A stretch of DNA of 32,000 nucleotides from Candidatus Saccharimonadota bacterium. GTDB taxonomy: Bacteria; Pseudomonadota; Gammaproteobacteria; Enterobacterales; Enterobacteriaceae. Below the pieces are notes generated by a model. That model saw nothing but the letters and a program-made list of their open reading frames with translations. It was not told where the DNA came from and did not search any database. Location of the stretch: positions 90,001-122,000 of the forward strand of contig CP024013.1 of assembly GCA_002688505.1 (NCBI GenBank). The letters run 5' to 3'. Numbering within the stretch: the stretch's first letter is position 1; each line of letters starts with the position of its first letter. Shown in pieces: positions 2,288-29,849 of this stretch. Both the position numbers and the translations under genes were made by a program.

Positions 2288-4696
2288 TTATTTTAAAAAA
2301 TTTAATGTTTTAAAAATATTAAAAGATTTTTTAACTATACATTTAGGTATTCCACACTTATAAGCTATTAAAAAACTACAACTATTATTACAAATACCTT
2401 TTTTAATTTTATATAAAAAAATAATATTATTATTTTTTTTTATAAAATCAAAATAAATACTTCTAATATTATTATACAATTTACCTATCTTAGGCAATTC
2501 AAAAAAATGAGTAGAAAATAAAGTTATACTTTTAATATTTCTAGATATATAATCTAAACATGATCAAGCTAAAGAAATACCTTCATAAAATGAAGTACCT
2601 CTTCCCATTTCATCTATTAATAATAAACTATTTTTAGTAGCATTATTAATTATATAAGAAATTTCAGACATTTCTATCATAAAAGTAGATTTATTAGAAG
2701 ATATATCATCTGAAAAACCTATTCTAGTTAAAATCTTATCAATAAAACCTATATAAGCTTTACTAGCAGGTACATAACAACCAATATAAGACATTATACA
2801 AATAATAGCAATTTGTCTCATATAAGTACTCTTTCCACCCATATTAGGACCTGTTATTAATAAAGTTCTTACATTTTTATCTATTAATATATTATTTGTA
2901 ATAAATTCAAATTTTTCAATATAATCAAATATAGGATGACGACAATTTCGAATATCTAAAAAAGAACAATTACTAAATAATTTAGGTTTCTTAAAATTTA
3001 AACAAACTGATCTTTCAACAAAACTAGATAAAACATCTAATTTAGAAATACAATTAGATATTAATTTTAAATTATTAATATATAAAATAATATAATTTAA
3101 TATTTTATTAAAAATTTCATTTTCTAATAATTTTATTTTTTTATTAATATAAATTATTTTAATTTCCAATTTTTTCAAATCTTTAAATATATATCTTTTA
3201 TAATATTTAAAAGATTGAAATTTTATATAATATTTAGGAACTAATTTCCAATCTAATTTACTAATTTGAATATAATAACCATGTACTTTATTAAATTTTA
3301 TAGATAAACTATTTATTTTAGTATTCCTCTTTTCTTTTTCTTCAATATTACTAATATAAACTTCTTTATTTTCATTAAAATATTTTAATTTATCTAAATA
3401 TTTATTATAACCTTTTAATATTAAATTATTAGAATCTAATTTTGGATTTACAATAGAAGTCTTAATTAAAATAATAATTTTTTTTAATAATTTTTTATTA
3501 ACAAATAAATATTTAAATACTTTAAATCTTAAAAATTTACTATTTTTAAATAATTTTAATATACTAATTATTAAATATAAATAAATTCTTAAATTTATTA
3601 AATCTTTAGAAGATACATTAAATAAAATTATTCTACCTAAAATACGTTCTAAGTCACCAACTTTATTTAAAATTTTTCTTAAATCTTCATTATAAAATCA
3701 TATAAAATTAATTATAGAATGACGATTTTTTATTATATTTAAATCTAAAACTGGTCTAATTAACCATCTTTTTAATAAACGACTACCCATAGGAGTAACA
3801 GTAGAATCTAAAATATTTAATAAAGTAAATTTTTTACTATTTAAAGAATCTATTAATTCTAAATTTTTAATAGTAGAAAAATCCATAAATAAATATTTAG
3901 AATCAGAAATTAATTTAATATTACTAATATGTACTAAATTTATAAATTGAGTAAATTTTATATAATTTAATAAACAACCAGCAGATATAATAATTAATTT
4001 TTTATTACTTATACCAAAACAATCTAAATTAGATAATTTAAAATGATTCAATAAAACTTTTAAACATAAACTATAATTAAAATATTTAAAAGAAATAGAA
4101 TTAAAATAATTAAATTCATTAAATAAAGAAGAAAAATCAAAATTATCTTTAGAATAAATTATTTCAGAAGGATTATTTTTAAATAATTCTGTTTTAAGTT
4201 CATCAAGACTTTTAATTTCTAAAACATAAAATTTACCACTAAAAATATCTATTAAAGAAAAACCAAAATTATTATTTATACCTTTAAAAATACAAGATAT
4301 ATAATTATCTTTTTTCTTATTTAGGTAAAAACTCTCAGAGATTGTACCTGGAGTAACTATTTTAATAACTTTTCTAAGTTTAATTTTTTTATTATTATTA
4401 TAATAAACATTATTATCATCTATTTGATTACATATAGCTATAGATTCACCTAATCTAACTAATTTTAAAACATATTTTTTATAAGAACATATAGGTATAC
4501 CAGCCATAGGTACATTTTTATGTTTAACAAATTTTTTTTCAGTTAAATTTAAATTTAATAAATTTGATATTTTAATTGCATCATCATAAAATAATTCATA
4601 AAAATCTCCTATTTGATAAAATAATAAAATATTCTTATATTTTTTTTTAATATTTAAATATTGTTCAATAATAGGACTTAATTTTTTTTTATCCAT
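2288..4696 (-). CDS. mutS: DNA mismatch repair protein MutS (802 aa when TGA=Trp)
   Basis: Three track ORFs (3698-4696, 2564-3178, 2288-2497) share one frame. They are separated only by in-frame TGA at 3698-3700 and 2564-2566. I checked every codon of 3179-3697 and 2498-2563 and found no TAA or TAG. Motifs present: GDFYELF (mismatch-binding domain I), VGDLERILGRI, Walker A GPNMGGKSTYMRQ, Walker B LLLIDEMGRGTS and FSTHFFEL. Confidence 0.93.
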
Positions 4697-4702
4697 ATTA
4701 AA

Positions 4703-5098
4703 TTAACGTTTAGAATATTGATGTTTACTACGAGATTTAATTAATCCATATTTTTTCCTTTCTACCTTTCTGGAATCTCTAGTTATAAACCCCCAATTTC
4801 TTAATATATTTTTTAAATTATTATTATATTTTAATAAAATTCTACTTATTCCATGTCTAATAGCAATAGATTGACTAGATATTCCACCACCTTTAACAGT
4901 TATATAATAATTAAAATTATTTATATATTTATTATCCTTAACAATTAAAAAAGGTTTCATAATTATTAATCTATGTTTATTTAAAAAAAAATATTTATTA
5001 AATAATAATTTATTTATTTTAATTATTCCTTCTCCTTTTTTCATAAATATTCTTGCAGAAGAAGTTTTTCTACGACCTGTACTATATAAATTTTTCAT
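4703..5098 (-). CDS. rpsI: 30S ribosomal protein S9
   Basis: 131-aa ORF with GRRKTSSARIF, GGGISSQSIAIRHGISRIL and a C-terminal RKKYGLIKSRSKHQYSKR. It lies downstream of rplM, as in the rplM-rpsI operon. Confidence 0.95.
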   Translation of the reverse strand: MKNLYSTGRRKTSSARIFMKKGEGIIKINKLLFNKYFFLNKHRLIIMKPFLIVKDNKYINNFNYYITVKGGGISSQSIAIRHGISRILLKYNNNLKNILRNWGFITRDSRKVERKKYGLIKSRSKHQYSKR

Positions 5099-5105
5099 AT
5101 TAAAT

Positions 5106-5525
5106 TTAATTAATTAAAATTAATTTTTTAGAATTATGTTTATGAATATTTTTAGTATAAATTTTTAATCTCTTTAACATTAATCTACCTAAAAAATTTT
5201 TCGGTAACATACCTTTAACACAATGTCTTATAATTCTTTCAGGAAATTTTTCAAAAATATTTTTAAAAGATTTACATTTTAATCCACCTATATAACCACT
5301 ATGATGATAATATAATTTATTGCTAAATTTATTACCAGTTAATTTTATTTTAGAGATATTTATAACTACAACATAACTTCCATTAATAATATTAGATTTA
5401 AAACTATAATTATTTTTTCCCATTAATAAATATACTATTTTAGTACATAATCTACCTAATATTTTATCTTTAGCATTAATTAAATATCATAAACTATTCT
5501 TTTTAATACTTTTAATATATAACAT
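5106..5525 (-). CDS. rplM: 50S ribosomal protein L13 (139 aa when TGA=Trp)
   Basis: The track ORF 5106-5423 extends upstream through in-frame TGA 5487-5489 to ATG 5523-5525. The next in-frame stop upstream is the TAA at 5544-5546. The extension reads MLYIKSIKKNSLWYLINAKDKILGRLCTKI and matches the L13 N-terminus (..W-Y-hhh-D-A-x-x-x-x-LGRL). The rest contains LYYHHSGYIGGLK. Confidence 0.92.
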
Positions 5526-5543
5526 ATATAAACCTTTATAAAA

Positions 5544-6989: not shown

Positions 6990-7238
6990 AAATAACCTAA
7001 TTTAAAAAAAATATTATATATAATATATTTAATAATTATAAAAATTAAAATAAAAATATATAATTATTTAAATAAAAATATATATTTAAAAATAAAATAT
7101 ATAAAATCATTATAATTTATTATTAAATATTTAATAAATAAAAATATTTAATTTATAAAAATATTTTTTAAAATATTTATATAAATAATTTTATATTAAA
7201 ACAAATTTATTATTTATACTTTAATAAATATAATTAAT

Positions 7239-7267
7239 TTGATAGTATTAAATAAATTTAATATAAT
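7239..7267 (+). promoter_or_regulatory. Candidate sigma70 promoter for rplU-rpmA-obg (TTGATA-N17-TATAAT)
   Basis: TTGATA at 7239-7244, a 17-nt spacer, then TATAAT at 7262-7267, ending 25 nt before the rplU ATG. TATAAT-like hexamers are frequent by chance in this composition, so support is weak. Confidence 0.3.
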
Positions 7268-7292
7268 ATAAATTATTTAAGTAAAATAAAAT

Positions 7293-7860: not shown

Positions 7861-7862
7861 AA

Positions 7863-9431: not shown

Positions 9432-10045
9432 ATGAAAAAAAAAAATAATTTTTTTTTAAAAAAAAAAATAAATATAATAAATTATCAATAAAAAACAAAA
9501 CAATATCAAAATCATGATTTAAATTATTTGAAATAAATAAAAAAAATCATATTTTTAAAAAAAATCATAACATAATAAATTTAGGATCTAGTCCTGGAGG
9601 ATGAACAAAATTTTTAATAAATAAAATTAAAATTAAAGGAAAAATATTTTGTTGTGATATTTTAAATATTAAAAATAAATTCAATACAAAATTTATACAA
9701 GGTGATATTTGTAATAAAAAAATATTTAATTTAATTATTAAAAAAACTAAAAAATATAACATAAATAATATAATATCAGATATATCACCAAATATAACAG
9801 GAATTAAAGAAATAGATAATCCTAAAAATAACAAAATTATAAAAACTATACTAAAATTATGTAAAAAAAAATTAATAAAAGATGGAAATTTAATAATAAA
9901 AATATTTTTAGGTGAAAATTTTTCTAAATATTTCAAAATAATAAAAAAAATATTTAATAATATAAAAACACAAAAACCAAAATCATCTAATATATTTTCA
10001 AAAGAAATATATATAATAGCAAAAGGTTATAAAAAAATATTTTAA
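9432..10045 (+). CDS. rlmE: 23S rRNA (U2552-2'-O)-methyltransferase RlmE/FtsJ; the start region needs a -1 frame change or a non-ATG start
   Basis: The frame-2 reading from 9449 to the TAA at 10043-10045 gives ..NKYNKLSIKNKTISKS-W-FKLFEI..NLGSSPGG-W-TKF..QGDI..ISDISPNITG..IIKIFLGE..QKPKSSNIFSKEIYIIAKGY. The Trp residues are encoded by TGA at 9515-9517 and 9602-9604. This frame is closed upstream by TAA 9446-9448 and has no ATG, GTG or TTG. The only ATG (9432) is in frame 0, which ends at TAA 9489. The antisense track ORF 9565-9936 is spurious. Confidence 0.85.
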
Positions 10046-10076: not shown

Positions 10077-11891
10077 ATGACAAAAAATTTAATATTTTGA
10101 TTAACTGCTACAATAATAATATTATTTATTTTTAATAATTATAATAATAATTATTATCATAATGAATTAAATTATTCCAACTTTTTATTAGATATTAAAA
10201 ACAATAAAATTAAAAAAATAAAAATAAATGGAAGAGAATTAAAAATAATAAAAAAAAATAATTATAAATATAAAACATATATGCCTATTAATGATATTAG
10301 TTTAATTAATAAATTAATTAAAAAAAATATTATAATAGAAAGTACTAATAAAAATAAACCTACTATATTTATATCAATATTAATATCTTGAACTCCAATT
10401 ATATTAACAATATTTATTTGAATTTTATTTATTAAACAAATAAAAAGTAGTAGTAAAAATTCATTATTCTTTAATAAAAAAAAAACAAAAATTTTTAACA
10501 AAAATATTAATATAACTTTTAAAGATATAGCAGGATGTAATGAAGCTAAAGAAGAAGTTAAAGAATTAGTAGAATATTTAAAAAAACCAAAAAAATTTCA
10601 AAAATTAGGTGGAAAAATACCTAAAGGTATATTAATGATAGGACCACCTGGAACAGGTAAAACTTTATTAGCAAAAGCTATAGCTGGAGAATCTAAAGTA
10701 CCTTTTTATAATATATGTGGATCAGATTTTGTAGAAATGTTTGTAGGAGTAGGAGCTTCTAGAGTTAGAAATATGTTCGAAGAAGCAAAAAAAACATCAC
10801 CATGCATAATATTTATAGATGAAATAGATGCTGTAGGTAGAAAAAGAAGTATAAGTATAAGTGGAGGTAATGATGAAAGAGAACAAACATTAAATCAAAT
10901 GTTAGTAGAAATGGATGGATTTAATAATAACCAAGGAATAATTATAATAGCTGCAACAAATAGACCAGATGTTTTAGATCCAGCTTTATTAAGACCAGGA
11001 AGATTTGACAGAAAAATTATAATAGACTTACCTGATTTAATAGAAAGAAAACAAATAATTAAAATACATATTAAAAAAATACCTTTAAATAAAGATATAA
11101 ATATAAATACTATAGCAAAAAGTACACCAGGATTTTCAGGAGCAGATTTAGCAAATTTAATAAATGAATCAGCATTATTAGCTGCAAAAAATAATCTTAA
11201 TAATATTTCAATGAGAGAAATAGAAACATCAAAAGATAAAATTATATTAGGATCAATTAGAAAATCATTAATAATAACAAATTTACAAAAAGAATCTACA
11301 GCTTATCATGAAGCAGGACATACAATTATAGGAAATATTGTACCTGAACATGACCCTGTACATAAAGTAACTATAATTCCTAGAGGTAAATCATTAGGAG
11401 TAACATTATTTTTACCAGAAAATGACAATTTATTTATAAGTAAAAAACAATTAGAAAGTAAAATATCAACTTTATATGGAGGAAGAGTAGCTGAAGAAAT
11501 AATATATGGAAAAGAAAATATATCAACAGGAAGTAGTAATGATATTAAAATAGCAACATCTATAGCTAGAAATATGGTAATAAAATGAGGTTTCTCAGAT
11601 AAACTTGGACCATTATTATATGAACAAAATGAAGAAAACCTAATACAAAACCAAATATATAACAAACATTATTTTATATCCGAATATATATATAAAATTA
11701 TTGATAAAGAAATAAAAAAAATAATAAAAAAAAATTATAAAAGAGCAAAATATATTTTAATTAAAAATATAAATATATTACATATAATGAAAAATGAATT
11801 AATTAAACATGAAACTTTAAATTATAAAGATATTATAAAAATAATGTGTATAAATAATAATAATAAAAATAAATTAATAAAAAAAAATTAA
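10077..11891 (+). CDS. ftsH: ATP-dependent zinc metalloprotease FtsH (604 aa when TGA=Trp)
   Basis: ATG at 10077. In-frame TGA codons fall in the N-terminal and TM region (10098-10100 and two more) and at 11586-11588 ([14 protein letters not shown], matching the enterobacterial WGFSEKLGPLLY). It has Walker [18 protein letters not shown], Walker [10 protein letters not shown], the SRH region and the zinc motif HEAGH. TAA at 11889-11891. Confidence 0.96.
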
Positions 11892-12498: not shown

Positions 12499-13536
12499 AT
12501 GAATAAAGAAATACTAGAAGTAGCAGAAGCTGTATCAAATGAAAAATCTTTACCTAGAGAAAAAATTTTTAAAACATTAGAAAGTGCATTAGAAATTGCA
12601 ATAAAAAAAAAATATGAAAAAAAGATAAATATAAAAGTTTATATAAATAGAAAAAATGGAATATTTAATATATATAGAAGATGAATAATAGTTAAAAATG
12701 TTAAATATCCAGAAAAAGAAATAAATATTAAAAATATAAAAAATAAAAATATTAAAATAGGAGAATATATACAAAATAAAATAAAATCAATTAAATTTGA
12801 TAGAATTTCTACACAAACTGTAAAACAAATAATAATTCAAAAAATGAGAGAAGCTGAAAAATTAATGATACTTAAGAAAATAAAAAAAAAAACAGGTAAA
12901 ATTATTTCAGGATTTGTTAAAAAAATAAAAAATAATTATTTAATTATAGATATAAAATATAATTTAGAAGCTATTCTACTTAGAAAACATATGATTTTAA
13001 AAGAAAAATTTAAAAAAGGTGATAAAATTAAAGCTTTAATATATAAATTTAAACAAACAAATTATAAATATAAAATATTTTTAACAAGATATAAAAATAA
13101 ATTTTTAAAAGAACTTTTTAAAATACAAATTCCTGAAATAAAAAAAAAAACTATTAAAATAATTAATATTTCAAGAGATCCAGGATTAAGAACTAAAATA
13201 GCAATCAAAACAAAAGATAAAAGAATAGATCCTATAGGAACATGTATAGGAATAAAAGGATTAAGAATTAAAAAAATATCTAATGAATTATCAGGAGAAA
13301 AAATAGATATAATTTTATGAAATAAAAATCCAAAAAAATTTGTTATAAATGCAATGGCACCTGCAAAAATAATAAATATTAAAATAAATAAAATCAAAAA
13401 AAAAATGGAAATAATTGTAAAAGAAAATAACATAGCTAAAGCTATAGGCAAAAAAGGTCAAAATATAAAATTAGCATCTAAATTAACTAAATGAAATATT
13501 GATATTATAAATAATAACAAAAAAAATATAAAATAA
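12499..13536 (+). CDS. nusA: Transcription termination/antitermination factor NusA (345 aa; lacks the C-terminal AR1/AR2 extension)
   Basis: Track ORFs 12499-12684 and 12844-13320 plus the tail are one frame joined through TGA at 12682-12684, 13318-13320 and 13492-13494. The sequence includes [69 protein letters not shown] and [24 protein letters not shown] (KH domains). TAA at 13534-13536. Confidence 0.94.
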
Positions 13537-13593: not shown

Positions 13594-15523
<1,930 letters not shown>

Positions 15524-15526
15524 ATA

Positions 15527-15880: not shown

Positions 15881-15883
15881 AAT

Positions 15884-16597: not shown

Positions 16598-16601
16598 AAA
16601 A

Positions 16602-17288
16602 ATGAAAAAATTAGTAATATTAAGACATGGTGAAAGTATTTGAAATAAAAAAAATATATTTACTGGATGAATAGATGTTAAATTATCTAAAAAAGGTATA
16701 TTAGAAGCAAAAAATGCTGGTAAAATTTTAAAAAAAAATAAATTTTCATTTGATATAGCATATACATCTTTATTAAACAGAGCTATACATACTACATGAG
16801 AAATATTAAATAAATTAAATTTAACATGAATTAAAATATATAAAACATGAAAATTAAATGAAAGACATTATGGTAAATTACAAGGTTTGAATAAAAATAA
16901 AGTTTTAAAAAAATATGGAAAAGTTAAATTTCAAGAATGAAGAAGAAGTTTTTTTATAAATCCACCAAAAATTAATGAAAATGATATACAATATCCTGGA
17001 AAAGATATAAAATATAAAAATTTAAATAAAAATAAAATTCCATTAGGAGAAAGTTTACTAGATACATATAATAGAGTAATACCTTATTGAAAAAAAAATA
17101 TATATAAAAATATTTTAAATAATAAATTAATACTAATTGTAGCACATGGTAATTCATTAAGAGCTTTAATTAAATATATAGAAAATATTTCAGATAAAAA
17201 TATATCAAATTATGAAATTCCAACTGGCAAACCATTAATATACGAATATAAAGATGAATTCAAAATTAAAGATAAATATTACTTATAA
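16602..17288 (+). CDS. gpmA: 2,3-bisphosphoglycerate-dependent phosphoglycerate mutase (228 aa when TGA=Trp)
   Basis: This gene is absent from the ORF track because it contains seven in-frame TGA codons. Translation gives [41 protein letters not shown]-..[28 protein letters not shown]-..[15 protein letters not shown]. Examples are TGA 16641-16643 and 16668-16670, which fall on the RHGES-W-N and FTG-W positions of GpmA. TAA at 17286-17288. Confidence 0.93.
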
Positions 17289-17304
17289 ACAAAAAATTTA
17301 ATAT

Positions 17305-17376: not shown

Positions 17377-17444
17377 TTTAAAAAATATAATAACAAAAAT
17401 AAAATTAAAATTCAACTAAATAGTAATTTTAAAAAAATTTAATA

Positions 17445-18092
17445 TTATTTAGAATTATTATTATTATTATTATATTTAAAAATTTTTACTATAGCAGGTC
17501 TTAATAATCTATCATTTATCATATAACCATCTTGTAAAACTTCCATTATATTATTATCTTTAGATTTATCATTAGTATAAACTATTGAAATAGCTTGATG
17601 ATAATTAGGATCAAATTTCTTAATTTTATCTAAATTAATAATACCAAATTTTTTTAATGTTATTAAAAAATTTTTTAAAGTTAAAGCAATACCTTTAAAA
17701 TTAATATAAGAATCTATTTTTTTATCTTTACTAACTAAAATAGAGGATTTTAAATTATCAACAATTAATAATAAATCTTTAGAAAATTTTTCTAAAGAAT
17801 ATTTATAAATTTTATTAATATTTTTTTCATTTAATTTTCTCATATTATCAATATCAGCTTTAGCTCTTAAATTAATATCATTTATTTTTTTTTTTAAAAT
17901 AGTTAATTTATTTTTTAATTTATTTATTAACTTATTTTTAATATTAATTTCTTCTTCTAACAAAAAAATTTTATCTTTTATTTTTTTTAAAATAGTATTA
18001 TCACAACATAAAGTATTATCTTTAATTTTATTTTTATCTAAACAATCAATATCAAAATTTTTATTATTATTATTATATTCCTTATTATTCAT
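17445..18092 (-). CDS. grpE: Nucleotide exchange factor GrpE
   Basis: 215-aa ORF with LRAKADIDNMRKL, LLLIVDNL, FDPNYHQAISIV and VLQDGYMINDRLLRPAIVKI. Confidence 0.9.
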   Translation of the reverse strand: MNNKEYNNNNKNFDIDCLDKNKIKDNTLCCDNTILKKIKDKIFLLEEEINIKNKLINKLKNKLTILKKKINDINLRAKADIDNMRKLNEKNINKIYKYSLEKFSKDLLLIVDNLKSSILVSKDKKIDSYINFKGIALTLKNFLITLKKFGIINLDKIKKFDPNYHQAISIVYTNDKSKDNNIMEVLQDGYMINDRLLRPAIVKIFKYNNNNNNSK

Positions 18093-18212
18093 ATTTTTTC
18101 CTAAAAAATATTAATTTACATAAAAATTTATATAAAATATTATAAATTAGTTATTATAATATAACAAATATAAAATAAATTATATATATTTAAATATAAA
18201 AATATTAAAAAA

Positions 18213-18638
18213 ATGAAAAAAAAAAATAATATTATATATAATAAATTTATAAAAAAAAAATATACAATAAAAAAAACATTTAAAACAGGTATAATACTCA
18301 AAGGATGAGAAGTTAAATCAATATTAAAAAATAATATAGATATAAAAAATAATTATATATATATTAATAAAAATAAAGAAATTTATATAAAAAATTTAAA
18401 TATATCTCCATTAGAAAATCAAATTGTAAATAAAAAAAATAGAAAAATAAAATTACTATTAAAAAAAAAAGAAATTTATTATTTATATAATAATGTAAAA
18501 ATAAAAGGCTATACAATAATACTAGTATATATATTAATTAAAAAACCATGATTTAAAACTAAAATAGCTTTATGCAAAGGTAAAAAAATATATGATAAAA
18601 GAAATAATATAAAATATAAATACTGAAAAAAACAATAA
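18213..18638 (+). CDS. smpB: SsrA-binding protein SmpB (141 aa when TGA=Trp)
   Basis: Not in the track because of in-frame TGAs. Translation gives MKKKNNIIYNKFIKKKYTIKKTFKTGIILKG-W-EVKSILKNNIDIKNNYIYI...KP-W-FKTKIALCKGKKIYDKRNNIKYKY-W-KKQ. G-W-EVKS (TGA 18306-18308) is the SmpB signature. It lies immediately upstream of ssrA. Confidence 0.9.
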
Positions 18639-18687
18639 TAATATTGACATTAAAAAATTTAATTATATAATTATAATTAATATAAAA

Positions 18688-19043
18688 GGGGCTGTATATG
18701 GTTTTGACAAAATATATTTATTTTAATGTGCATGTCGAGGTTACGGTAGGCCGCGTTAAAAACCGTAAATTTTAATTGCAAAAAACAATCAAAATTGTGC
18801 ATTAGCAGCTTAAAAAACTGTTAGGCCGTTTTTATATATTATTTTATCTCTTTATAAATATAAAGACGTTATATAAAAGAGAAAAAATTATAGATGTCTA
18901 TGTCTATAATTTATATATATAATAGACTAATTAATTATTTATTTTTTTTATTTTAAATAATTAATAAAAATGAAAATAAAATAAACATGTAGTAACAATA
19001 AAATATTTTGTTTTGGAAGCGGGTTCGAATCCCGCCAGCTCCA
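18688..19043 (+). ncRNA. ssrA: tmRNA (one-piece), tag peptide AKNNQNCALAA
   Basis: The 5' GGGGCTG pairs with the 3' CAGCTCC (a G3:U pair, the Ala identity element). The T arm is GCGGGTTCGAATCCCGC, with discriminator A at 19043. The tag ORF GCA AAA AAC AAT CAA AAT TGT GCA TTA GCA GCT TAA spans 18778-18813 and ends in the canonical ALAA. There is no encoded CCA. Confidence 0.95.
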
Positions 19044-19068
19044 ATAATTTAAAAATTATTTTTTTTAT

Positions 19069-19140
19069 AGGTGATTAGCTCAGTGGTAGAGCATCTCTTT
19101 TACAAGGAGAAAGTCAATGGTTCAATTCCATTATCACCTA
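19069..19140 (+). tRNA. tRNA-Val (anticodon TAC), no encoded CCA
   Basis: Acceptor AGGTGAT/ATCACCT; D arm GCTC-AGTGGTA-GAGC; anticodon arm TCTCT-TTTACAA-GGAGA (TAC); T arm AATGG-TTCAATT-CCATT. Confidence 0.92.
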
Positions 19141-19160
19141 TTAAATTTTAATATTTAAAA

Positions 19161-20513
19161 TTATTTAAACTTTAATAAATCTTTATATGAAATTTTTGAA
19201 AAATTATTTTCATAAACTAAAATTAATAATGATAAAGTAATATCTAATATTTCTTTATTATCCAAATTATTAATTATTTTTTCTAAAAAACTTTTATAAA
19301 AATTTAATATTAAATTATTTCTATAAAAATTTTTTTTTATTAAATCTAATATTTTATTAAATCTAAAATCTAATAAGGTATTAAAATTAGGTATATTAAT
19401 CCTTTTAATATTATTATTAAATTTTTTATTTATTAAATTTAAAAATTTTAAATCTTTCTTTTCTAAAAATAAAATAGCTTTTCCGATATTATTAGCTCTA
19501 CCTGTCCTTCCTATTCTATGAATATAAGAATTTATATTATATGGTAAATCATAATTAATTATTAAATTAACATCACTAATATCTAAACCTCTAGAAGCTA
19601 CATCAGTAGCAACTAAAATTTTTATTAAACCATTTCTAAAATTTAAAATAATTTTTTCTCTTAAATTTTGATTTATATCACCATTTAATGCAGAAGATAA
19701 ATATCCCTTCTTCTCTAATAAAGAAGATAATTTTAAACTAAAATCTTTAGTTTTAACAAAAATAATTAATCTAATAAAATTTTCAGTCTCTAAAAATTTC
19801 ATTAATGTATTTATTTTAAATTTATAATTTATAAAACAATAATATTGAACTATATTCAAATTTATTTTATTCTTATTAAGAATAATTTCTTCAGGATTAT
19901 TCATAATATTTTTAGTAATTTTATAAATATGAAAGGACATAGTAGCTGAAAATAAAGCAGTTTGATGCAATATTTTAATATTTTTAATAATAATTTTAAC
20001 ATCTTTTATAAAACCCATATGTAACATTTCATCAGCTTCATCTATAACTAAAATTTTTATATTAGTTAAATAAATAGTTTTTCTATTTATATGATCTAAT
20101 AATCTTCCAGGAGTAGCTATAACTATATTAGGTTTATTTTTTAAATTATTAAATTCAATATTATAATTTTGACCACCATATAAGGATAATATTTTAATTT
20201 TTTTAAAATAATTTATAAATAATTTAAAAAAATTATAAATTTGTATTACTAATTCTCTAGTAGGTGTTATAATCAAAACTTGTAAATCATTATTAATTTT
20301 AATATTATTTAATATAGGTAATACAAAAGAAGCTGTTTTACCACTACCTGTTTTAGCTATAGCTAAAATATCTTTTCCTCTTAAAAAAGCAGGTATACAT
20401 CTAACTTGTATTTCTGTAGGAATTTTATATCCTATATTATAAATAATTTTTAATAATTCCTTATTTAAACCAAAATCATTAAAATTATTTATATTAAATT
20501 GATTTAAATTCAT
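19161..20513 (-). CDS. deaD: DEAD-box ATP-dependent RNA helicase DeaD/CsdA (450 aa; C-terminal extension shortened)
   Basis: Motifs AKTGSGKTASFVLPIL, TPTREL, TPGRLLDHI, VIDEADEMLHMGFI, HQTALFSATM, SSALNGDINQNLRE and YIHRIGRTGRA. It lies downstream of rpsO-pnp, as in E. coli. Confidence 0.9.
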   Translation of the reverse strand: MNLNQFNINNFNDFGLNKELLKIIYNIGYKIPTEIQVRCIPAFLRGKDILAIAKTGSGKTASFVLPILNNIKINNDLQVLIITPTRELVIQIYNFFKLFINYFKKIKILSLYGGQNYNIEFNNLKNKPNIVIATPGRLLDHINRKTIYLTNIKILVIDEADEMLHMGFIKDVKIIIKNIKILHQTALFSATMSFHIYKITKNIMNNPEEIILNKNKINLNIVQYYCFINYKFKINTLMKFLETENFIRLIIFVKTKDFSLKLSSLLEKKGYLSSALNGDINQNLREKIILNFRNGLIKILVATDVASRGLDISDVNLIINYDLPYNINSYIHRIGRTGRANNIGKAILFLEKKDLKFLNLINKKFNNNIKRINIPNFNTLLDFRFNKILDLIKKNFYRNNLILNFYKSFLEKIINNLDNKEILDITLSLLILVYENNFSKISYKDLLKFK

Positions 20514-20577
20514 ATATTATTTTTCCATTATTTTAATATATATTTAAATATTTAATAAAAAATAAAATATTATATTT

Positions 20578-22683
20578 TTAAATATTATGTATATTTAATT
20601 TCATTTTTCCATTTTTAATATTAATATTAAGAACTTTTACAAATATAAACTGACCTATTTTAAAAAAATTAAAAATATTATTTATATTAAATTTTGTAAT
20701 AATATGAGATATATGTAATAAACCTTCTTTTCCATTTTTAAATAATACAAATAAACCAAATTCTACTATTTTAATTATTTTAACTTTATAAATATTACCT
20801 ATTTTTAAATCTTCAGTAATTTTTTTAATATTTTTAATAACATTTTTTACATCATTCTCATTAGATGAAATTATTTTGATAATACCATTATCTTCTATTT
20901 CTATTAAACAATTATGTTTTTCTGTTAAATTTTTAATTACAGAACCACGTTTACCTATAACATATTTAATTTTATCAATATTTATTTTAAAAGTAAATAT
21001 TTTAGGAGCAAATTTAGAAATTCTATTACTTTTATTAATAGATAAATTCATTTTATCCAAAATATATAATCTAGAATCTTTTGATTTATACAAAGAATTT
21101 TCTATTATATCATAATTTATACCATCAATTTTCATATCCATTTGAATAGCAGTTACACCAAAACTAGTACCTATAATTTTAAAATCCATATCTCCTAATC
21201 TATCTTCATCTCCAATTATATCAGATAATATAAATTTTTTATTTTTATATAAAAACAAACCCATAGCAATACCAGAAACATTACTTTTTATAGGAACACC
21301 AGCATCCATTAATGATAAAGAAGCTCCACATACAGAAGCCATAGAAGATGAACCATTAGATTCTAAAATATCTGAAACTATACGTATAGTATAAGGAAAA
21401 TTTTTATTATCTGGTAAAACTGGTAATATTCCTTTTTTAGCCAAATAACCATGACCTATTTCTCTACGTTTTGGTATACCTATATTACCAATTTCACCAA
21501 CAGAATATGGAGGAAAATTATAATGAAAAATAAATTTATCTGTTCTATCACCTAAAAAAATATCATTAAAATTTTGAGCATCTTTAGATGTACCTAAAGT
21601 AACAGTAACTAAAGCTTGTGTTTCTCCTCTAGTAAATAAAGCAGAACCATGAACTCTTTTTGGTAAAAATCCTAATTTTATATCAATATCTCTAATATCA
21701 TCTTTTTTCCTTTTATCTATACGAATATTTTTATTTAATAAATTTAATATTATTATTTTTTTTTCAATTTTCTGAAATTCTTTAAAAATTAAATATTCTT
21801 TAAAATTAAATTTATTTTCAATTAAATTTAATATTAAATTACTTCTTAATAAATCTAATTTTTTATTTCTATCTTTTTTATTTAAAAATGATAAATATAA
21901 ATTTTTAATTTTATTTTTACAAAATAAATTAATATAATTTTTTAATTTATCTGATTTATAATCATTAATATAAGAAAAATCAAATTCAATAATATTATTA
22001 TTTTTTTTAGATAATGAAAATAAATTAATATTTTTAATTACTTCTAAATATTTAATATAACCAAAATCTATAGCATTTAAAATTACATTTTCACTTAAAT
22101 TATTACTAGAAACATCAATTACAGTTATACCACTTTTAGTTCCAGCAATCACTAAATTTAAATCACTATAAAACATTTGAGATATAGTTGGATTTAAAAT
22201 AAATTTTTTATTTATATAACCTATTCTTGCAGCACCTAAAATTTTTATATCTGGTATACCTGATATACTTAAAACAGCTGATACTGCTATTATTGATAAA
22301 ATATCAGCAGTTATCTGAGGATCTATAGAAATTACATTTACAACTATTTGTATTTCATTTAAAATATTTTTATTAAACAAAGGTCTTATAGACCTATCAA
22401 TTAATCTAGATATTATAACTTCTATATCACTGGATCTTCCTTCTCTTCTAAAAAAACTACCTGGTATTTTACCAGCAGAATAAAATTTTTCTTGATAATA
22501 AACACTTAAAGGAAAAAAATTTTGTTCATTATTTAACTGATCATTAAAAACTAAAGTTACTATTACTACTGTATCACCAATACTAGCAATAATAGAAGAA
22601 GTAGATTGTCTAGCTATTAAACCAGTTTCAAATTTTATTATACAATCGCCAAACTTAAATTCAAAAATATTATCTTTTAACAA
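20578..22683 (-). CDS. pnp: Polynucleotide phosphorylase
   Basis: 701-aa ORF with a TTG start at 22681-22683; E. coli pnp also starts with UUG. An AAGGA SD lies upstream. It has two RNase PH domains (FETGLIARQSTSS.., REIGHGYLAKKG) followed by KH and S1 (GNIYKVKIIKIVEFGLFV). Confidence 0.96.
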   Translation of the reverse strand: MLKDNIFEFKFGDCIIKFETGLIARQSTSSIIASIGDTVVIVTLVFNDQLNNEQNFFPLSVYYQEKFYSAGKIPGSFFRREGRSSDIEVIISRLIDRSIRPLFNKNILNEIQIVVNVISIDPQITADILSIIAVSAVLSISGIPDIKILGAARIGYINKKFILNPTISQMFYSDLNLVIAGTKSGITVIDVSSNNLSENVILNAIDFGYIKYLEVIKNINLFSLSKKNNNIIEFDFSYINDYKSDKLKNYINLFCKNKIKNLYLSFLNKKDRNKKLDLLRSNLILNLIENKFNFKEYLIFKEFQKIEKKIIILNLLNKNIRIDKRKKDDIRDIDIKLGFLPKRVHGSALFTRGETQALVTVTLGTSKDAQNFNDIFLGDRTDKFIFHYNFPPYSVGEIGNIGIPKRREIGHGYLAKKGILPVLPDNKNFPYTIRIVSDILESNGSSSMASVCGASLSLMDAGVPIKSNVSGIAMGLFLYKNKKFILSDIIGDEDRLGDMDFKIIGTSFGVTAIQMDMKIDGINYDIIENSLYKSKDSRLYILDKMNLSINKSNRISKFAPKIFTFKINIDKIKYVIGKRGSVIKNLTEKHNCLIEIEDNGIIKIISSNENDVKNVIKNIKKITEDLKIGNIYKVKIIKIVEFGLFVLFKNGKEGLLHISHIITKFNINNIFNFFKIGQFIFVKVLNINIKNGKMKLNIHNI

Positions 22684-22714
22684 AATTATTTATCCTTAAT
22701 AACTAATTAAATAT

Positions 22715-22984
22715 TTAATGCCTAATATTTAAAATTTTTAATAATTTTATATATTTATTAAAATTATAAAATTTTAAATAATTCAATAATTTACGTCTTC
22801 TAAATATTAAATTTAAAAAACCTCTTTTACTATGAAAATCTTTTTTATAAATAAAAAAATGGTTTTGTAATTTATTTATCCTAAATGTTAGTAATATAAT
22901 TTGTGTTTCACAACATCCAGTATTATTTTTTTTATAAGAATATTTTCTAAAAATTTTTTTTTTAAATTCATCAATATTTAACAT
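22715..22984 (-). CDS. rpsO: 30S ribosomal protein S15
   Basis: 89-aa ORF with TGCCETQIILLTFRINKLQNHFFIYKKDFHSKRGFLNLIFRRRKLLNYLK (S15 core). Confidence 0.93.
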   Translation of the reverse strand: MLNIDEFKKKIFRKYSYKKNNTGCCETQIILLTFRINKLQNHFFIYKKDFHSKRGFLNLIFRRRKLLNYLKFYNFNKYIKLLKILNIRH

Positions 22985-23017
22985 AATTTACAATATTTTT
23001 AAAAATTATAAATATAT

Positions 23018-23041
23018 AAAACCTTTTTTTTAAAAGGTTTT
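23018..23041 (-). terminator. Hairpin downstream of groEL, a candidate intrinsic terminator
   Basis: AAAACCTTTT (23018-23027) pairs with AAAAGGTTTT (23032-23041) around a TTTT loop. The structure lies 56 nt after the groEL stop. It is one of the very few G/C-containing elements in a spacer, and it ends in a T-run on either strand. Confidence 0.45.
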
Positions 23042-23096
23042 ATATATTTTATTAAATATAAAATAATAATAAATATAAATATTTTATATATTTATA

Positions 23097-24785
<1,689 letters not shown>

Positions 24786-24806
24786 TTAATATTTTATTAA
24801 TTATTT

Positions 24807-25097
24807 TTATTTTATTATAGCTAATACATCACTTTCAGACATAATTAAAACTTCTTTATTATCTAATTTTTCAGTTTTAATACCATATCCATCATTAAAT
24901 ATAATTAAATCTCCAACTTTAACATCAAGAGATTTTATTTTTCCATTATCTAAAATACGACCTTTTCCAACAGCTAATACTTTACCTCTATTGGATTTAC
25001 CAGCTGCTGAACCAGTTAATACTATACCTCCTGAAGATTTAGATTCAACATTTTTACGTTTTACTATAATACGATCATGTAATGGACGAATTTTCAT
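24807..25097 (-). CDS. groES: Co-chaperonin GroES
   Basis: 96-aa ORF reading [61 protein letters not shown] upstream. Confidence 0.98.
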
Positions 25098-25135
25098 TTA
25101 TTAACTTCCTTATTTATAATAAATTTAATATAAAT

Positions 25136-25144
25136 ATTATAACA
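25136..25144 (-). promoter_or_regulatory. Candidate extended -10 element (TGTTATAAT) for groES-groEL
   Basis: The reverse complement of 25136-25144 is TGTTATAAT (TGnTATAAT), 39 nt upstream of the groES ATG. I could not find a sigma32-type CCCCAT element or a CIRCE inverted repeat in 25098-25299. Support is weak in this composition. Confidence 0.25.
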
Positions 25145-25240
25145 ATAATTATTTATTATATAATTATTAATTAATTTTTTTTTAATAAATATATTAATAA
25201 TATAATAAACTTATTAATATTAATATATAAATATTGAAAA

Positions 25241-25269
25241 TTGACAATTTATTTTTAATACTTTATAAT
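25241..25269 (+). promoter_or_regulatory. Candidate consensus sigma70 promoter for cutA (TTGACA-N17-TATAAT)
   Basis: TTGACA at 25241-25246, an exactly 17-nt spacer, then TATAAT at 25264-25269, ending 30 nt before the cutA ATG. Both hexamers match the consensus perfectly. Confidence 0.4.
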
Positions 25270-25299
25270 ATTAAAGTTTTTAAATTATAATTTAAATAA

Positions 25300-25713
<414 letters not shown>

Positions 25714-25772: not shown

Positions 25773-27497
25773 TTAATTATTTATTAAATTTTTATTTAAA
25801 ATTTTTTCTATATCTTTATTTGTTTTTTGATCTAAAATTTTATCTAATAATTTTTTACAAGAAGAATAATAAGAACTTCTTATAATTTTTTTTACATTAG
25901 GTATAAAACTTACATTCATACTTAATTCATCTAAACCTAACCCTAATAATAATTTAATAGAATTTAAATTACTAGCTAATTCTCCACATATACCAACTTT
26001 TTTATTTTTTTCATGAATAGTATTTACTATATATCTAATTAAATTTATAATAGAAGGACATAAAGGATTATATAAATAAGAAACTTTTAAATTATTTCTA
26101 TCTACTGCTAAAACAAATTGTGTTAAATCATTAGTACCAATACTAAAGAAATCTAATTCTTCAGCTAAATGACTACATATTATTGCTGCAGAAGGTGTTT
26201 CAATCATAGCACCAATTTTAATATTTTCATCAAAATTAATATTTTCTTTAATTAAATTATTTTTTATATAATCAATTTCACTTTTTAAAAAATATACTTC
26301 TTCCATAGATATTATCATTGGGAATAATATACGAATTTTACCAAAAAAAGAAGCTCTTAATATTGCTCTTAATTGAGTATGTAATATTTGTTTATTGTCT
26401 TTATAAATTCTTATAGATCTTCAACCTAAGAAAGGTACATCTTCTTTAGGAAAATCCATATATGATAAAAATTTATCACCACCTAAATCAACAGTACGAA
26501 TAGTAACTAAATTATCTTTCATAAGTTTAACAGCTTCTTTATAATAGAAAAATTGTTCTTCTTCGTTAGGAAAATCATTTCTATCCATAAATAAAAATTC
26601 TGTTCTATATAAACCTATACCTTCAGCTCCATATTTAAATATATTATTAATATCTTTATTATTACCTACATTAGCTAATAATTTTATATTATAACCATCA
26701 AATGTAATAGCATTTAAATTTCTTAATTTTAATAAATTCTTTTTATCAGAAATAAATTTATTATATTTTTTATCAAATATTTTAATAATACTTTTATCAG
26801 GATTTATATAAACATTTCCTTTAATACCATCTATTATTACATAATCATTATTTTTAATTAAATTAGTAATATTATTAACACCTATTAAAGAAACTAATTC
26901 TAAAGATTTAGATATTATTGAACTATGTGAAGTAATACTACCATTTTCAATAATAAAACCTTTTATAATATCTAAATTAAATTGAACAATTTGAGAAGGA
27001 GATAAATCTTCAGAAATTATAATTATATTTTCTTTATTATTATTTAAAGAATTAAAATCTATTAATTCTATATTTTTAATATTATAAATTAATCTTTTAG
27101 ATATATCAATTAAATCATTAGCTCTTTCTTTAATATAAATATTATTAACTTTTTTAATAAGTTTTATTTGTTTATTTATAAATTTATTAACTGCTGTATC
27201 AGCATACAATAACTTATTTTTTATTAAATTTATAATATCTTTTTTAAATAATTTATCTTTTAATATTAGTATATAACCATCAAATAATAATTTTCTATCC
27301 TTATTTTTAATAGATAAATTTCTTATATTTTTTAATTGTCTTAAAGTCTTTTTATAAGATTTTAAAAAGTTATTAATTTCATTATCTATTTGATTTTTAT
27401 CTATATTATCATTATTTATAATTATATTTTCTTCTTTTAATATAAAAGCCTTTCCAAAAGCATAACCATTATATATTGCAATACCATTTAATAACAT
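25773..27497 (-). CDS. ptsI: Phosphoenolpyruvate-protein phosphotransferase, PTS enzyme I (574 aa when TGA=Trp)
   Basis: Track ORFs 26421-27497 and 25773-26318 are one frame joined through TGA 26421-26423. I checked all codons of 26319-26420. The junction reads [47 protein letters not shown], matching E. coli [37 protein letters not shown]. The active-site region GSITSHSSIISKSLE (phospho-His) is present. Confidence 0.95.
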
Positions 27498-27534
27498 TAT
27501 TATACCTTTTAAATATATGTTAAATTTTATAATA

Positions 27535-27964: not shown

Positions 27965-28984
27965 ATGATCAAAAAATTATTTTTAATAATAATAACACTA
28001 TTAACAGTAAATAAAAATTTATATTCTAAAGAAATCTTAAAAAATAATAATTTATATAATAAAGAAATATATTTTGGAACTAAAATAGGTTTATCAAATA
28101 TTTTAAACTTAAAAAATTTAAATAATAAATTTAAAATAATTAATACTAAATTTAAATCTAATAAATTAGGATATGGAAGTTATTTAGGATATAAAATAAA
28201 TAAAAATATAAATATTGAATTAGGATATGATAATTTAGGTAAAGTCTTAAAAAAAGGAAAATTTATTAATGGTTATTTTAAATCTAGGGGAATAACATTA
28301 TCTAATAAAATTAATTATAATATTACAAATAATACTAATTTATATTTAAGAATAGGATGAATAATAATTAAATCTATTTCAAAAAAAAATAATATTATAA
28401 ATAATACTAAAAATATAATTTCATATAAAAAAATAACTCCTTTAACTTCATTAGGAATTGAATTTAAAATAAATAGAAACTTATTTTCTAGAATTGATTA
28501 TCAATTTATATATAATCTAGGACAAAAAAATATTTTAAATGAAGAACCAAAAAATAATTTTTTTAATATAAGTTTTATATATAAATTTAATTATAATAGT
28601 AAAAAAATTAATAAAATAAATGAAATTATAAATAATGAAAATTTTATTAAAAATTTAATAACAAAAAAATATTTTAATAAAACAAAAATATTTAATAAAA
28701 ATATAAGAAATAATTATAAATATAATTTAATTAAAATTTTAAGTTTAATAAAAAAAAAAAAATATAAAATATTATCAATTAATATTTTTAATTATTCAAT
28801 ATTAAATAAAAATATTAAATTAAAATTAATAAATTTTATTAAATATAATTTAAAAAAATTTAATATAAATACTAATATTAAAATTTATAAATTATTAAAT
28901 AATAAATGTTATAAAAAAGATATATCAAATAATTGTTATAATAATTTAAATAAAATTTTTTTAATTAAGATTAAATTATTTTAA
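27965..28984 (+). CDS. ompA: Outer membrane protein A (339 aa when TGA=Trp); the C-terminal peptidoglycan-binding domain is degenerate
   Basis: Track ORF 27965-28360 continues through TGA 28358-28360 to TAA 28982-28984; I checked all codons. It has a signal peptide MIKKLFLIIITLLTVNKNLYS. Beta-strand blocks align with E. coli OmpA: IYFGTKIGLSN / WYTGAKLGWSQ, KLGYGSYLGYKINKNINIELGYDNLG / [35 protein letters not shown] / LDIYTRLGGMVW and LGIEFKINRNLFSRIDYQF / GGVEYAITPEIATRLEYQW. The two C-terminal Cys residues are retained. AAGAGAG SD upstream. Confidence 0.85.
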
Positions 28985-28992
28985 TATAAATT

Positions 28993-29020
28993 AAAAACCA
29001 CTTTTACAAAAGTGGTTTTT
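28993..29020. terminator. Bidirectional hairpin terminator between convergent ompA and the 5'-3' exonuclease gene
   Basis: AAAAACCACTTTT (28993-29005) and AAAAGTGGTTTTT (29008-29020) are perfect reverse complements (CCAC/GTGG core) and end in T5 on both strands. The hairpin starts 9 nt after the ompA stop and lies 5 nt beyond the exonuclease stop. Confidence 0.6.
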
Positions 29021-29024
29021 AAAA

Positions 29025-29849
29025 CTAATTTATATATAAGTTTTTAAATAAACTTTTATTAAAAATATAATCATTAATTTTAATAGATATGTGAATATTA
29101 TTATTAAAACTAACTAATCTATATCAAATTCTTATATTATAAAAATTAATTTTTAAATTATTAATAATATTTATATTTATACCAATTTTTTTTAATTTAT
29201 TTAAATTATTATATATATTATATATATCACCAAATTTATTTAAAATTTTTAATGCTGTTTTTTTACCTATACCTTTAATACCAGGTATATTATCACTTCT
29301 ATCACCACATAAAACTAAATAATCTTTTAATAAATATGGATATAATCCATAATTTTTATATATTTTTTTAACATTTAATATACTATTATTATATATAAAT
29401 ATATTATTATTAACTAACTGTATAAAATCTTTATCATAAGATAATATATATATGTATATATATTTAAATAATTTATTTAATTTATAAGTTAAATAACTAA
29501 TAACATCATCACTTTCTATATTTATAATTGATATAATATTTAAATTAAAATAAAATAATCTCTTTTTTAAAAAACATATATATTTTTTAAAATTTTTAGA
29601 ATACTTTTTTCTATTAGATTTATAATCATTAAATATTTTATTTCTATAATTAAATTTATTTTTTTTATCAAATATAAAAAAAATGTAATCAGGATTTACT
29701 TTATTATATCTTGAATAAATCATATTTATAAAAACATTAAATGATTTATCAAAATCTTTTATTTTACTTTTATAATTAATTATATAATAAGCTTTATAAG
29801 CGAATAAAGTACAATCTATTAAAAAGATATTTTTATAATAATTAAACAT
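29025..29849 (-). CDS. 5'-3' exonuclease (FEN-like; Pol I N-terminal domain only, or Xni/ExoIX-like), 274 aa when TGA=Trp
   Basis: Track ORF 29124-29849 continues through TGA 29124-29126 to TAG 29025-29027. Motifs: IFLIDCTLFAYKAYY, IFFIFDKKNKFNYRNKIFNDYKSNR, IESDDVISYL, LSYDKDFIQLV and LVLCGDRSDNIPGIKGIGKKTALKIL (H3TH). No polymerase domain follows. Confidence 0.88.

What the first reader, a model, noticed from the sequence alone, without database searches (positions are those of the whole stretch)
2288..29849. UGA is a sense (Trp) codon: genetic code 4 in what looks like an Enterobacterales-derived endosymbiont
At least 12 genes are intact only if TGA is translated, and the TGA codons fall on conserved Trp positions. 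Examples are gpmA RHGES-W-N (16641-16643), FTG-W (16668-16670) and five more; ptsI PFLG-W-R (26421-26423); fts[13 protein letters not shown] (11586-11588); rlmE PGG-W (9602-9604); and smpB G-W-EVKS (18306-18308). Further cases are nusA K-W-N (13492-13494), rplM (5487-5489), cutA YI-W-N (25456-25458), ompA RIG-W (28358-28360), mutS (2564-2566, 3698-3700) and the exonuclease (29124-29126). Every stop I verified is TAA or TAG: rplI, rpsR, rpsF, mutS, rpsI, rplM, tldD, rlmE, ftsH, secG, nusA, gpmA, grpE, smpB, deaD, pnp, rpsO, groEL, groES, cutA, ptsI, ptsH, ompA, the exonuclease and the infB terminus. Stop-to-Trp recoding is established for Mollicutes and a handful of tiny insect symbionts, mostly alpha- and betaproteobacterial. 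Here the 16S blocks, GroEL and E. coli-like synteny point to a gammaproteobacterial host lineage, where the recoding is rare.
Basis: partly seen in the sequence, partly recalled or inferred. Interest (0 to 1): 0.8.

Follow-up and report, generated by a model that had tools for sequence, protein, structure and literature searches.

The report
Known UGA-to-tryptophan code in Stammera symbiont
This window is a piece of the tortoise-beetle gut symbiont Candidatus Stammera capleta, which really does read the stop codon UGA as tryptophan, but this has been published for this organism since 2017, so the finding is correct and not new.

Summary
The window (16.6% G+C) has 30 complete protein genes. All end in TAA (28) or TAG (2), none in TGA. 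Eleven genes carry 27 in-frame TGA codons.

- With TGA masked as X, 24 of the 26 TGA codons alignable to E. coli orthologues fall on Trp columns (chance about 7e-51).
- In 14 related genomes the same columns hold TGA 196 times and TGG 70 times. Four of the window's five TGG codons are TGA in the closest relative.

So UGA = Trp (code 4) is well supported.

The organism is Candidatus Stammera capleta (Enterobacterales), the pectinolytic symbiont of Cassidinae beetles. PNPase is 84-87% identical to Stammera genomes. RplI is 100% identical to an NCBI protein on a 271,175-bp contig. Logan contigs of run SRR6147586 match with no mismatch.

Code 4 in Stammera was reported by Salem et al. 2017 and is listed in every later survey I read. 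Neither gene is in the window.

Small corrections: 11 genes, not 12. ompA and one mutS TGA are not on E. coli Trp columns.

In passing: infB is broken by an A76 run and an exact 77-bp duplication, probably assembly artefacts.

The parts
2288..4696 (-). mutS, 802 codons, TGA at 3698-3700 and 2564-2566, stop TAA
   Evidence: Aligns over its length to E. coli MutS (292/791 identical). TGA 2564 lies on E. coli W709 and TGA 3698 on E. coli Q332. Both are TGA in the closest relative L049, and the window's TGG codons 311 and 483 are TGA there.
5106..5525 (-). rplM (L13), TGA at 5487-5489, stop TAA
   Evidence: The TGA aligns to E. coli W15 (KRDWYVVDA vs KNSLxYLINA). It is TGA in L049.
9449..10045 (+). 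rlmE, TGA at 9515-9517 and 9602-9604, stop TAA. The start codon is uncertain: there is no ATG upstream of the first TGA.
   Evidence: Both TGA codons lie on E. coli Trp (W36, W65). Both are TGA in L049. N-terminal translation.
10077..11891 (+). ftsH, 604 codons, TGA at 10098, 10389, 10419, 11586, stop TAA
   Evidence: All four lie on E. coli W8, W106, W116, W507. Relatives carry TGA or TGG at these columns, except one TAT at 10389 in L015.
12499..13536 (+). nusA (345 codons, lacks the C-terminal repeats of E. coli NusA), TGA at 12682, 13318, 13492, stop TAA
   Evidence: All three lie on E. coli W62, W276, W334. Relatives carry TGA or TGG, apart from one TTA.
16602..17288 (+). gpmA, 228 codons, seven TGA (16641, 16668, 16797, 16827, 16848, 16938, 17088), stop TAA
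   Evidence: All seven lie on E. coli Trp columns (W16, 25, 68, 78, 85, 115, 165). Under table 11 the longest fragment would be 65 codons. Basal relatives have TGG at all seven.
18213..18638 (+). smpB, 141 codons, TGA at 18306, 18549, 18624, stop TAA
   Evidence: All three lie on E. coli W39, W122, W147. Relatives carry TGA or TGG at all three columns, except TAT at 18306 in L005 and L013. The Logan gene caller also called a 141-residue product.
25300..25650 (+). cutA, 116 codons, TGA at 25456 and 25618, stop TAG
   Evidence: Both lie on E. coli W52 and W106. Relatives carry TGA or TGG, apart from one TCA.
25773..27497 (-). ptsI, 574 codons, TGA at 26421-26423, stop TAA
   Evidence: The TGA lies on E. 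coli W357 (PFLGWR). Relatives carry TGA or TGG.
27965..28984 (+). ompA, 339 codons, TGA at 28358-28360, stop TAA
   Evidence: The TGA aligns to E. coli G120, with Trp three residues later. The column is variable in distant relatives. It is TGA in six close relatives and TGG in L006.
29025..29849 (-). 5'-3' exonuclease (PolA N-terminal-type), 274 codons, TGA at 29124-29126, stop TAG
   Evidence: Pfam 5_3_exonuc_N 9e-29 and 5_3_exonuc 4e-21. The TGA column is TGA in 10 relatives, TGG in L005, L015 and L016, and AAT in L013.

Best explanation
The window is part of the roughly 0.27-Mb genome of Candidatus Stammera capleta, an extracellular Enterobacterales symbiont of tortoise leaf beetles, which uses genetic code 4. 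UGA is a tryptophan codon and only UAA and UAG terminate. Shown here: in-frame TGA sits where orthologues have Trp, it alternates with TGG among Stammera lineages, and no gene ends in TGA. Under extreme A+T pressure TGA has largely replaced TGG (27 TGA against 5 TGG in the window). Taken from the literature, not from the window: release factor 2 (prfB) is absent from the reference genome, so nothing terminates at UGA. The only tRNA-Trp has a CCA anticodon with a normal 5-bp anticodon stem. Inferred: UGA is therefore read by near-cognate C34-A pairing of tRNA-Trp(CCA), made workable by the lack of RF2 competition. Any help from tRNA body changes or modifications is unknown.
For: 24 of 26 masked TGA codons fall on E. 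coli Trp columns, P = 6.6e-51. At the window's TGA columns, 14 related loci carry TGA 196 times and TGG 70 times, with few other codons. The window's TGG codons in rpsF, mutS (two) and tldD are TGA in L049. Relatives form a graded series from 0 TGA: 18-23 TGG (L013, L015, L016) through 8:12 (L005) and 15:2 (L012) to 18-22 TGA with at most one TGG. Stops are 28 TAA, 2 TAG, 0 TGA. Alignments to E. coli run through the TGA codons in one frame, for example ftsH 338/596 and gpmA 113/226 identical. Identity of the organism: PNPase 84-87% to Stammera genomes, RplI 100% identical to an NCBI protein on a 271,175-bp contig, Logan SRR6147586 contigs with no mismatch, taxonomy. Literature: code 4 in Stammera (Salem et al. 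[quoted passage not shown]
Against: The window itself contains neither trnW nor the prfB locus, so the two classical molecular markers rest on published surveys, not on my own test. One TGA (mutS 3698) has no independent Trp evidence. There is no protein-level evidence that Trp is inserted, and no measure of how efficiently a CCA-anticodon tRNA reads UGA.
Confidence: 0.97

Rival explanations
1. TGA is still a stop, and the 11 genes are pseudogenes or are made as fragments in a decaying genome.
For: Tiny symbiont genomes do accumulate pseudogenes. infB in this window looks broken.
Against: Nonsense mutations would not land on Trp columns 24 times out of 26. They would not be matched by TGG in relatives. 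Essential genes (ftsH, nusA, rplM, smpB, ptsI) stay in frame and conserved on both sides of each TGA. No gene uses TGA as its terminal stop.
Confidence: 0.01
2. UGA is a sense codon for something other than Trp: Gly as in code 25, Cys, or selenocysteine.
For: UGA to Gly exists in Gracilibacteria and Absconditabacteria. One TGA (ompA) aligns to an E. coli Gly.
Against: 24 of 26 columns are Trp in E. coli. The alternative codon in relatives is overwhelmingly TGG (70), against one GGT, no other Gly codon and no Cys codon. Published surveys report no tRNA-Sec or selB in Stammera.
Confidence: 0.01
3. The reassignment is incomplete. UGA is decoded slowly or ambiguously by near-cognate tRNA-Trp(CCA), so UGA-rich genes are made at reduced yield and stalled ribosomes are rescued by tmRNA-SmpB. 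This refines the main explanation rather than replacing it.
For: Only a CCA-anticodon tRNA-Trp with a standard 5-bp stem is reported. Some code-4 Stammera assemblies still carry prfB. tmRNA (18688-19043) and smpB are retained in the window. The most highly expressed genes here (groEL, groES, most ribosomal proteins, pnp) have no TGA at all.
Against: TGA has almost fully replaced TGG (27:5 in the window, 21:0 in several relatives). This includes seven in one glycolytic gene and three in smpB itself, which is hard to reconcile with costly decoding.
Confidence: 0.15

Closest known systems
Candidatus Stammera capleta reference genome (Salem et al. 2017, Cell; 0.27 Mb, 15.4% G+C, code 4)
   Same: Same organism as far as I can test. 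An identical RplI lies on a 271,175-bp NCBI contig. G+C, gene order and TGA usage match. Code 4 is the published annotation standard for this species.
   Different: Nothing relevant to the finding. I could not retrieve the accession itself to confirm base-for-base identity.
Candidatus Zinderia insecticola (Betaproteobacteria, code 4)
   Same: Tiny, extremely A+T-rich insect symbiont. prfB is lost and tRNA-Trp keeps a CCA anticodon.
   Different: Zinderia's tRNA-Trp(CCA) has a 4-bp anticodon stem, shown to promote UGA reading. Stammera's has the normal 5-bp stem. Different class of Proteobacteria.
Candidatus Hodgkinia cicadicola and Candidatus Nasuia deltocephalinicola (code 4)
   Same: UGA to Trp with loss of prfB in tiny insect symbionts.
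   Different: They changed the tRNA-Trp anticodon to UCA. Stammera did not.
Candidatus Providencia siddallii PSAC (leech symbiont, Gammaproteobacteria)
   Same: An Enterobacterales symbiont with UGA read as Trp and tRNA-Trp(CCA).
   Different: PSAC keeps a prfB that itself contains a UGA. Only about 20% of its genes carry UGA, and some genes still seem to stop at UGA. Stammera is far more advanced, with 62% of genes genome-wide and 11 of 30 in this window.
Basal Stammera lineage using code 11 (gTranslate preprint, 2026)
   Same: Same genus, same gene order. The orthologous Trp columns are occupied by TGG (L013, L015, L016).
   Different: Those genomes retain prfB and use UGA as a stop. For example, smpB of L013 reaches a TGA first after the alignment end. 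The window belongs to the recoded clade.

Membership tests
Genetic code 4 (UGA = Trp) organism | In-frame UGA codons at positions where orthologues have Trp | tested here: met
   24 of 26 alignable TGA codons lie on E. coli Trp columns with TGA masked, P = 6.6e-51.
Genetic code 4 (UGA = Trp) organism | TGA and TGG interchange as synonymous codons among close relatives | tested here: met
   196 TGA and 70 TGG at the window's TGA columns in 14 loci. Four of the window's five TGG codons are TGA in L049.
Genetic code 4 (UGA = Trp) organism | UGA not used to terminate genes, with no C-terminal extensions caused by reading through a real stop | tested here: met
   30 of 30 complete genes end in TAA or TAG. 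Protein lengths are at or below those of E. coli orthologues apart from small excesses (grpE +18, cutA +4, groL +2, rpsI +1 residues). The last TGA codons of smpB and cutA are on Trp columns.
Genetic code 4 (UGA = Trp) organism | Loss or inactivation of release factor 2 (prfB) | not testable with these tools
Published: absent in the reference Stammera (Table 2), present in 15 of 49 assemblies including the code-11 basal clade.
Genetic code 4 (UGA = Trp) organism | A tRNA able to read UGA as Trp (UCA anticodon, or an altered CCA tRNA) | not testable with these tools
   There is no tRNA-Trp in the window, in 14 related loci, or downstream of the rrn operon of L049, where E. coli rrnC has trpT. 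Published: only tRNA-Trp(CCA) with a 5-bp anticodon stem.
Candidatus Stammera capleta | Sequence identity and conserved gene order with sequenced Stammera genomes | tested here: met
   PNPase is 60-87% identical to 14 Stammera genomes, against 47% or less in all other hits. The same genes and tRNAs occur in the same order. RplI is 100% identical to an NCBI protein on a 271,175-bp contig.
Candidatus Stammera capleta | Extreme A+T richness (13.9-20.4% G+C reported) | tested here: met
   The window is 16.6% G+C. Published range.

The most novel reading that the evidence does not exclude
The least ordinary reading still open is that Stammera reads UGA efficiently with an unaltered-anticodon, normal-stem tRNA-Trp(CCA) through a mechanism not yet described. 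Candidates are a tRNA body change other than the 4-bp stem, a modification, or a ribosomal adaptation. The graded TGA:TGG series among Stammera lineages (0:21, 8:12, 15:2, 21:0) would then give a natural time course for dissecting it. Nothing in this window tests that.
Probability: 0.15. Interest if true: 0.55.

Novelty: already known. Interest (0 to 1): 0.1.

Why it matters
For genome scanning, it is a correct call made from raw sequence alone, and a reminder that such windows must be translated with table 4. For biology it adds nothing new. Stammera capleta has been a textbook-listed code-4 bacterium since 2017, and even the code-11 basal lineage has been reported. The one open question it touches is how a CCA-anticodon tRNA-Trp reads UGA, and that cannot be addressed from this window.

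Tried and rejected
1. An exact 35-mer from groEL against the species-representative genome collection found nothing. This genome is not a representative there, and relatives were found through PNPase instead.
2. I looked for tRNA-Trp in the window, in 14 Stammera loci and downstream of the rRNA operon of the closest relative, because E. coli trpT lies after aspT in rrnC. The operon is 16S-tRNA-Glu-23S-5S-tRNA-Asp, but rnt follows immediately and there is no tRNA-Trp.
3. I had no way to target prfB. I relied on published tables.
4. Looking up the window's RplI without its first residue failed. The full 148-residue protein was then found, but the look-up returned only the short Logan contig, not the NCBI chromosome.
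5. Cluster look-up gave no accession. Searching papers for the run SRR6147586 found nothing, and CP024013 is only cited as a Stammera 16S reference.
6. The supplements of the tRNA-stem paper hold no Stammera entry, so I could not check the A9C or G24A positions of its tRNA-Trp.
7. Antisense 'ORFs' also gave BLAST hits to E. coli loci. These are mirror images of real genes and were excluded before counting.
Full report
**What the window is.** The 32-kb window is 16.6% G+C. It starts inside a 16S rRNA gene on the minus strand (1-880). It carries tRNA-Leu(GAG), tRNA-Met, tmRNA, tRNA-Val and tRNA-Phe.

The genes, read with TAA and TAG as the only stops and compared with E. coli K-12 regions and Pfam, are:
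- rplI-rpsR-rpsF, mutS, rpsI-rplM, tldD, rplU-rpmA-obgE, greA
- rlmE-ftsH, secG-tRNA-Leu, nusA-infB-rbfA-truB, gpmA, grpE
- smpB-ssrA, deaD-pnp-rpsO, groEL-groES, cutA, ptsI-ptsH, ompA
- a PolA-type 5'-3' exonuclease, and the start of mnmG

Many of these blocks are in E. coli order. GroEL is 82% identical to E. coli GroEL.

**Which organism.** An exact 35-mer search of the species-representative genome collection found nothing. A PNPase-based scan returned 14 Candidatus Stammera capleta genomes at 60-87% protein identity. Every other hit was at 47% or below.

The window's RplI is 100% identical to an NCBI protein carried on a 271,175-bp contig. Contigs assembled from run SRR6147586 match the window without a single mismatch over 14902-16209 and 16180-25499. 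NCBI taxonomy places Stammera in Enterobacterales. The window therefore comes from the Stammera capleta reference strain or something indistinguishable from it.

**Checking the observation.** I defined 30 complete protein genes. Their stops are 28 TAA and 2 TAG, with no TGA. They contain 27 in-frame TGA codons in 11 genes:

| Gene | In-frame TGA codons |
|---|---|
| gpmA | 7 |
| ftsH | 4 |
| nusA | 3 |
| smpB | 3 |
| mutS | 2 |
| rlmE | 2 |
| cutA | 2 |
| rplM | 1 |
| ptsI | 1 |
| ompA | 1 |
| 5'-3' exonuclease | 1 |

There are only 5 TGG codons. The count is 11 genes, not 'at least 12'. A twelfth TGA in the rpsR frame lies upstream of its ATG.

To avoid circularity I translated TGA as X and aligned each protein semi-globally to its E. 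coli orthologue. Of 26 alignable TGA codons, 24 sit on E. coli Trp columns. Trp columns are 44 of about 6,900, so the chance probability is 6.6e-51. The two exceptions are mutS 3698 (E. coli Gln) and ompA 28358 (E. coli Gly, with a Trp three residues downstream).

**Evidence from relatives.** At the window's TGA columns, 14 Stammera loci carry TGA 196 times and TGG 70 times, with only scattered other codons. This includes the ompA column (TGG in L006) and the exonuclease column (TGG in L005, L015, L016).

Four of the window's five TGG codons (one in rpsF, two in mutS, one in tldD) are TGA in the closest relative examined there, L049 (CP043978). The fifth (rpsI) is TTA there. TGA and TGG therefore behave as synonymous codons.

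The only TGA without independent Trp evidence is mutS 3698, which is also TGA in L049. Alignments to E. coli run through the TGA codons in one frame at steady identity, for example ftsH 338/596 and gpmA 113/226. Under table 11, gpmA would be cut into pieces of at most 65 codons.

These results exclude pseudogenisation. They also exclude reassignment to Gly, Cys or Sec.

**What is already known.**
- UGA to Trp in Stammera capleta was reported with its first genome (Salem et al. 2017). It is listed as an established case in the Codetta screen, the Providencia siddallii paper, the Actinomycetota code-4 paper, the gTranslate preprint and the Stammera comparative-genomics preprint, which annotates all genomes with code 4.
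- Table 2 of the Providencia paper gives, for Stammera: prfB absent, trnW reading UGG (anticodon CCA), 15.4% G+C, and 159 of 255 CDS with UGA.
- The 2026 NAR paper classes Stammera's tRNA-Trp(CCA) as having the normal 5-bp anticodon stem, unlike Zinderia's 4-bp stem.
- Across 49 Stammera assemblies, tRNA-Trp(UCA) is never present and prfB is present in 15.
- Five genomes forming a basal clade are inferred to use code 11.

My own tabulation reproduces that picture:

| Loci | In-frame TGA : TGG |
|---|---|
| L013, L015, L016 | 0 : 18-23 |
| L005 | 8 : 12 |
| L012 | 15 : 2 |
| the other nine loci | 18-22 : 0-1 |

**Mechanism.**
- Shown here: UGA is a Trp codon and is not used as a stop.
- From the literature: RF2 is gone from the reference genome, and only tRNA-Trp(CCA) exists.
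- Inferred: with no RF2 to compete, the CCA anticodon reads UGA by a C-A mismatch at the wobble position. A+T mutation pressure then converted nearly all TGG to TGA.

Whether extra tRNA features such as A9C, G24A or modifications help is not known to me. I could not obtain the tRNA-Trp gene. It is not in the window or in the related loci. It is also not at the rrnC-like position after tRNA-Asp in L049, where rnt follows directly.

A refinement that remains possible is partly inefficient decoding, backed by the retained tmRNA-SmpB system. The near-complete replacement of TGG by TGA argues against a large cost.

**Side observation on infB.** As written in the window, infB is not one open frame. 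A run of 76 A (13815-13890) separates an ATG-initiated, lysine-rich frame from the G-domain frame, which is one base out of register. An exact 77-bp direct duplication (14821-14897 and 14902-14978, spaced by AATC) introduces an in-frame TAA at 14897-14899.

All 14 relatives have an uninterrupted IF2, with a 27-codon gap exactly at the extra copy in the closest ones. None has an A run longer than 18. Lengths of 76 and 77 are what an assembler working with 77-mers would leave at collapsed homopolymers and untrimmed contig overlaps. That interpretation is from my own knowledge. I therefore think both features are assembly artefacts, not biology, but only read mapping can settle it.

**Verdict.** It rediscovers a published property of a published genome. 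Interest is low, and the novelty class is 'already known'.

Noticed in passing
window 13815-13890 (infB 5' region): There is a homopolymer of 76 A. The ATG-initiated Lys-rich reading frame upstream (13595-13902) and the IF2 G-domain frame downstream (13817-14899) are one base out of register, so infB is frameshifted as written. Relatives have A runs of at most 18 and a single frame. The likely cause is an assembly collapse (k = 77 minus 1). If the run is real, it would require transcriptional or translational slippage.
   Followed up: partly
window 14821-14897 and 14902-14978 (inside infB): An exact 77-bp direct duplication separated by AATC inserts 27 codons and an in-frame TAA at 14897-14899. 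E. coli and all 14 Stammera relatives have one copy and an uninterrupted IF2. It looks like an untrimmed contig overlap. An independent Logan contig starts exactly at 14902 but breaks at the A12 run, so it does not settle the matter.
   Followed up: partly
related loci L013, L015, L016, L005, L012 (Stammera genomes CP144787, CP144793, CP144777, CP144790, CP144853): In-frame TGA:TGG ratios form a graded series across Stammera lineages: 0:18-23, then 8:12, then 15:2, then about 21:0. In L013 the first stop after the smpB alignment is a TGA. This matches the code-11 basal clade reported in the gTranslate preprint and shows intermediate stages of codon replacement.
   Followed up: partly
L049 10695-16275 (CP043978, left of the region equivalent to the window start): The single rRNA operon is 16S-tRNA-Glu-23S-5S-tRNA-Asp, the same layout as E. 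coli rrnC. The tRNA-Trp gene that follows aspT in E. coli is missing, and rnt starts 15 bases after tRNA-Asp. The only tRNA-Trp gene of this code-4 organism has therefore moved from its ancestral position.
   Followed up: partly
window about 600-720 (16S rRNA, minus strand): The 16S gene carries an insertion of roughly 70 nt of almost pure A+T in its 5' domain. 880 bases cover model positions 1-812.
   Followed up: no
window 9449-9520 (rlmE start): rlmE has no ATG, GTG or TTG in frame upstream of its first TGA codon, and the open frame begins TTT TTT TTT AAA. The start codon is unclear (perhaps ATT). The protein is about 13 residues shorter at the N-terminus than E. coli RlmE.
   Followed up: no
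window 6990-7292 and 29850-30334: Two long, repeat-rich, almost pure A+T spacers sit between divergently transcribed gene blocks (tldD/rplU, and exonuclease/mnmG). Gene-strand-linked GC skew changes sign at both. Several published Stammera chromosomes are numbered from near the mnmG spacer, so it may be the replication origin region.
   Followed up: no
window, all genes: The genes without any TGA include the most highly expressed ones: groEL, groES, pnp and most ribosomal protein genes. Trp as a whole is rare, at 32 codons in about 8,900, or roughly 0.36%.
   Followed up: no
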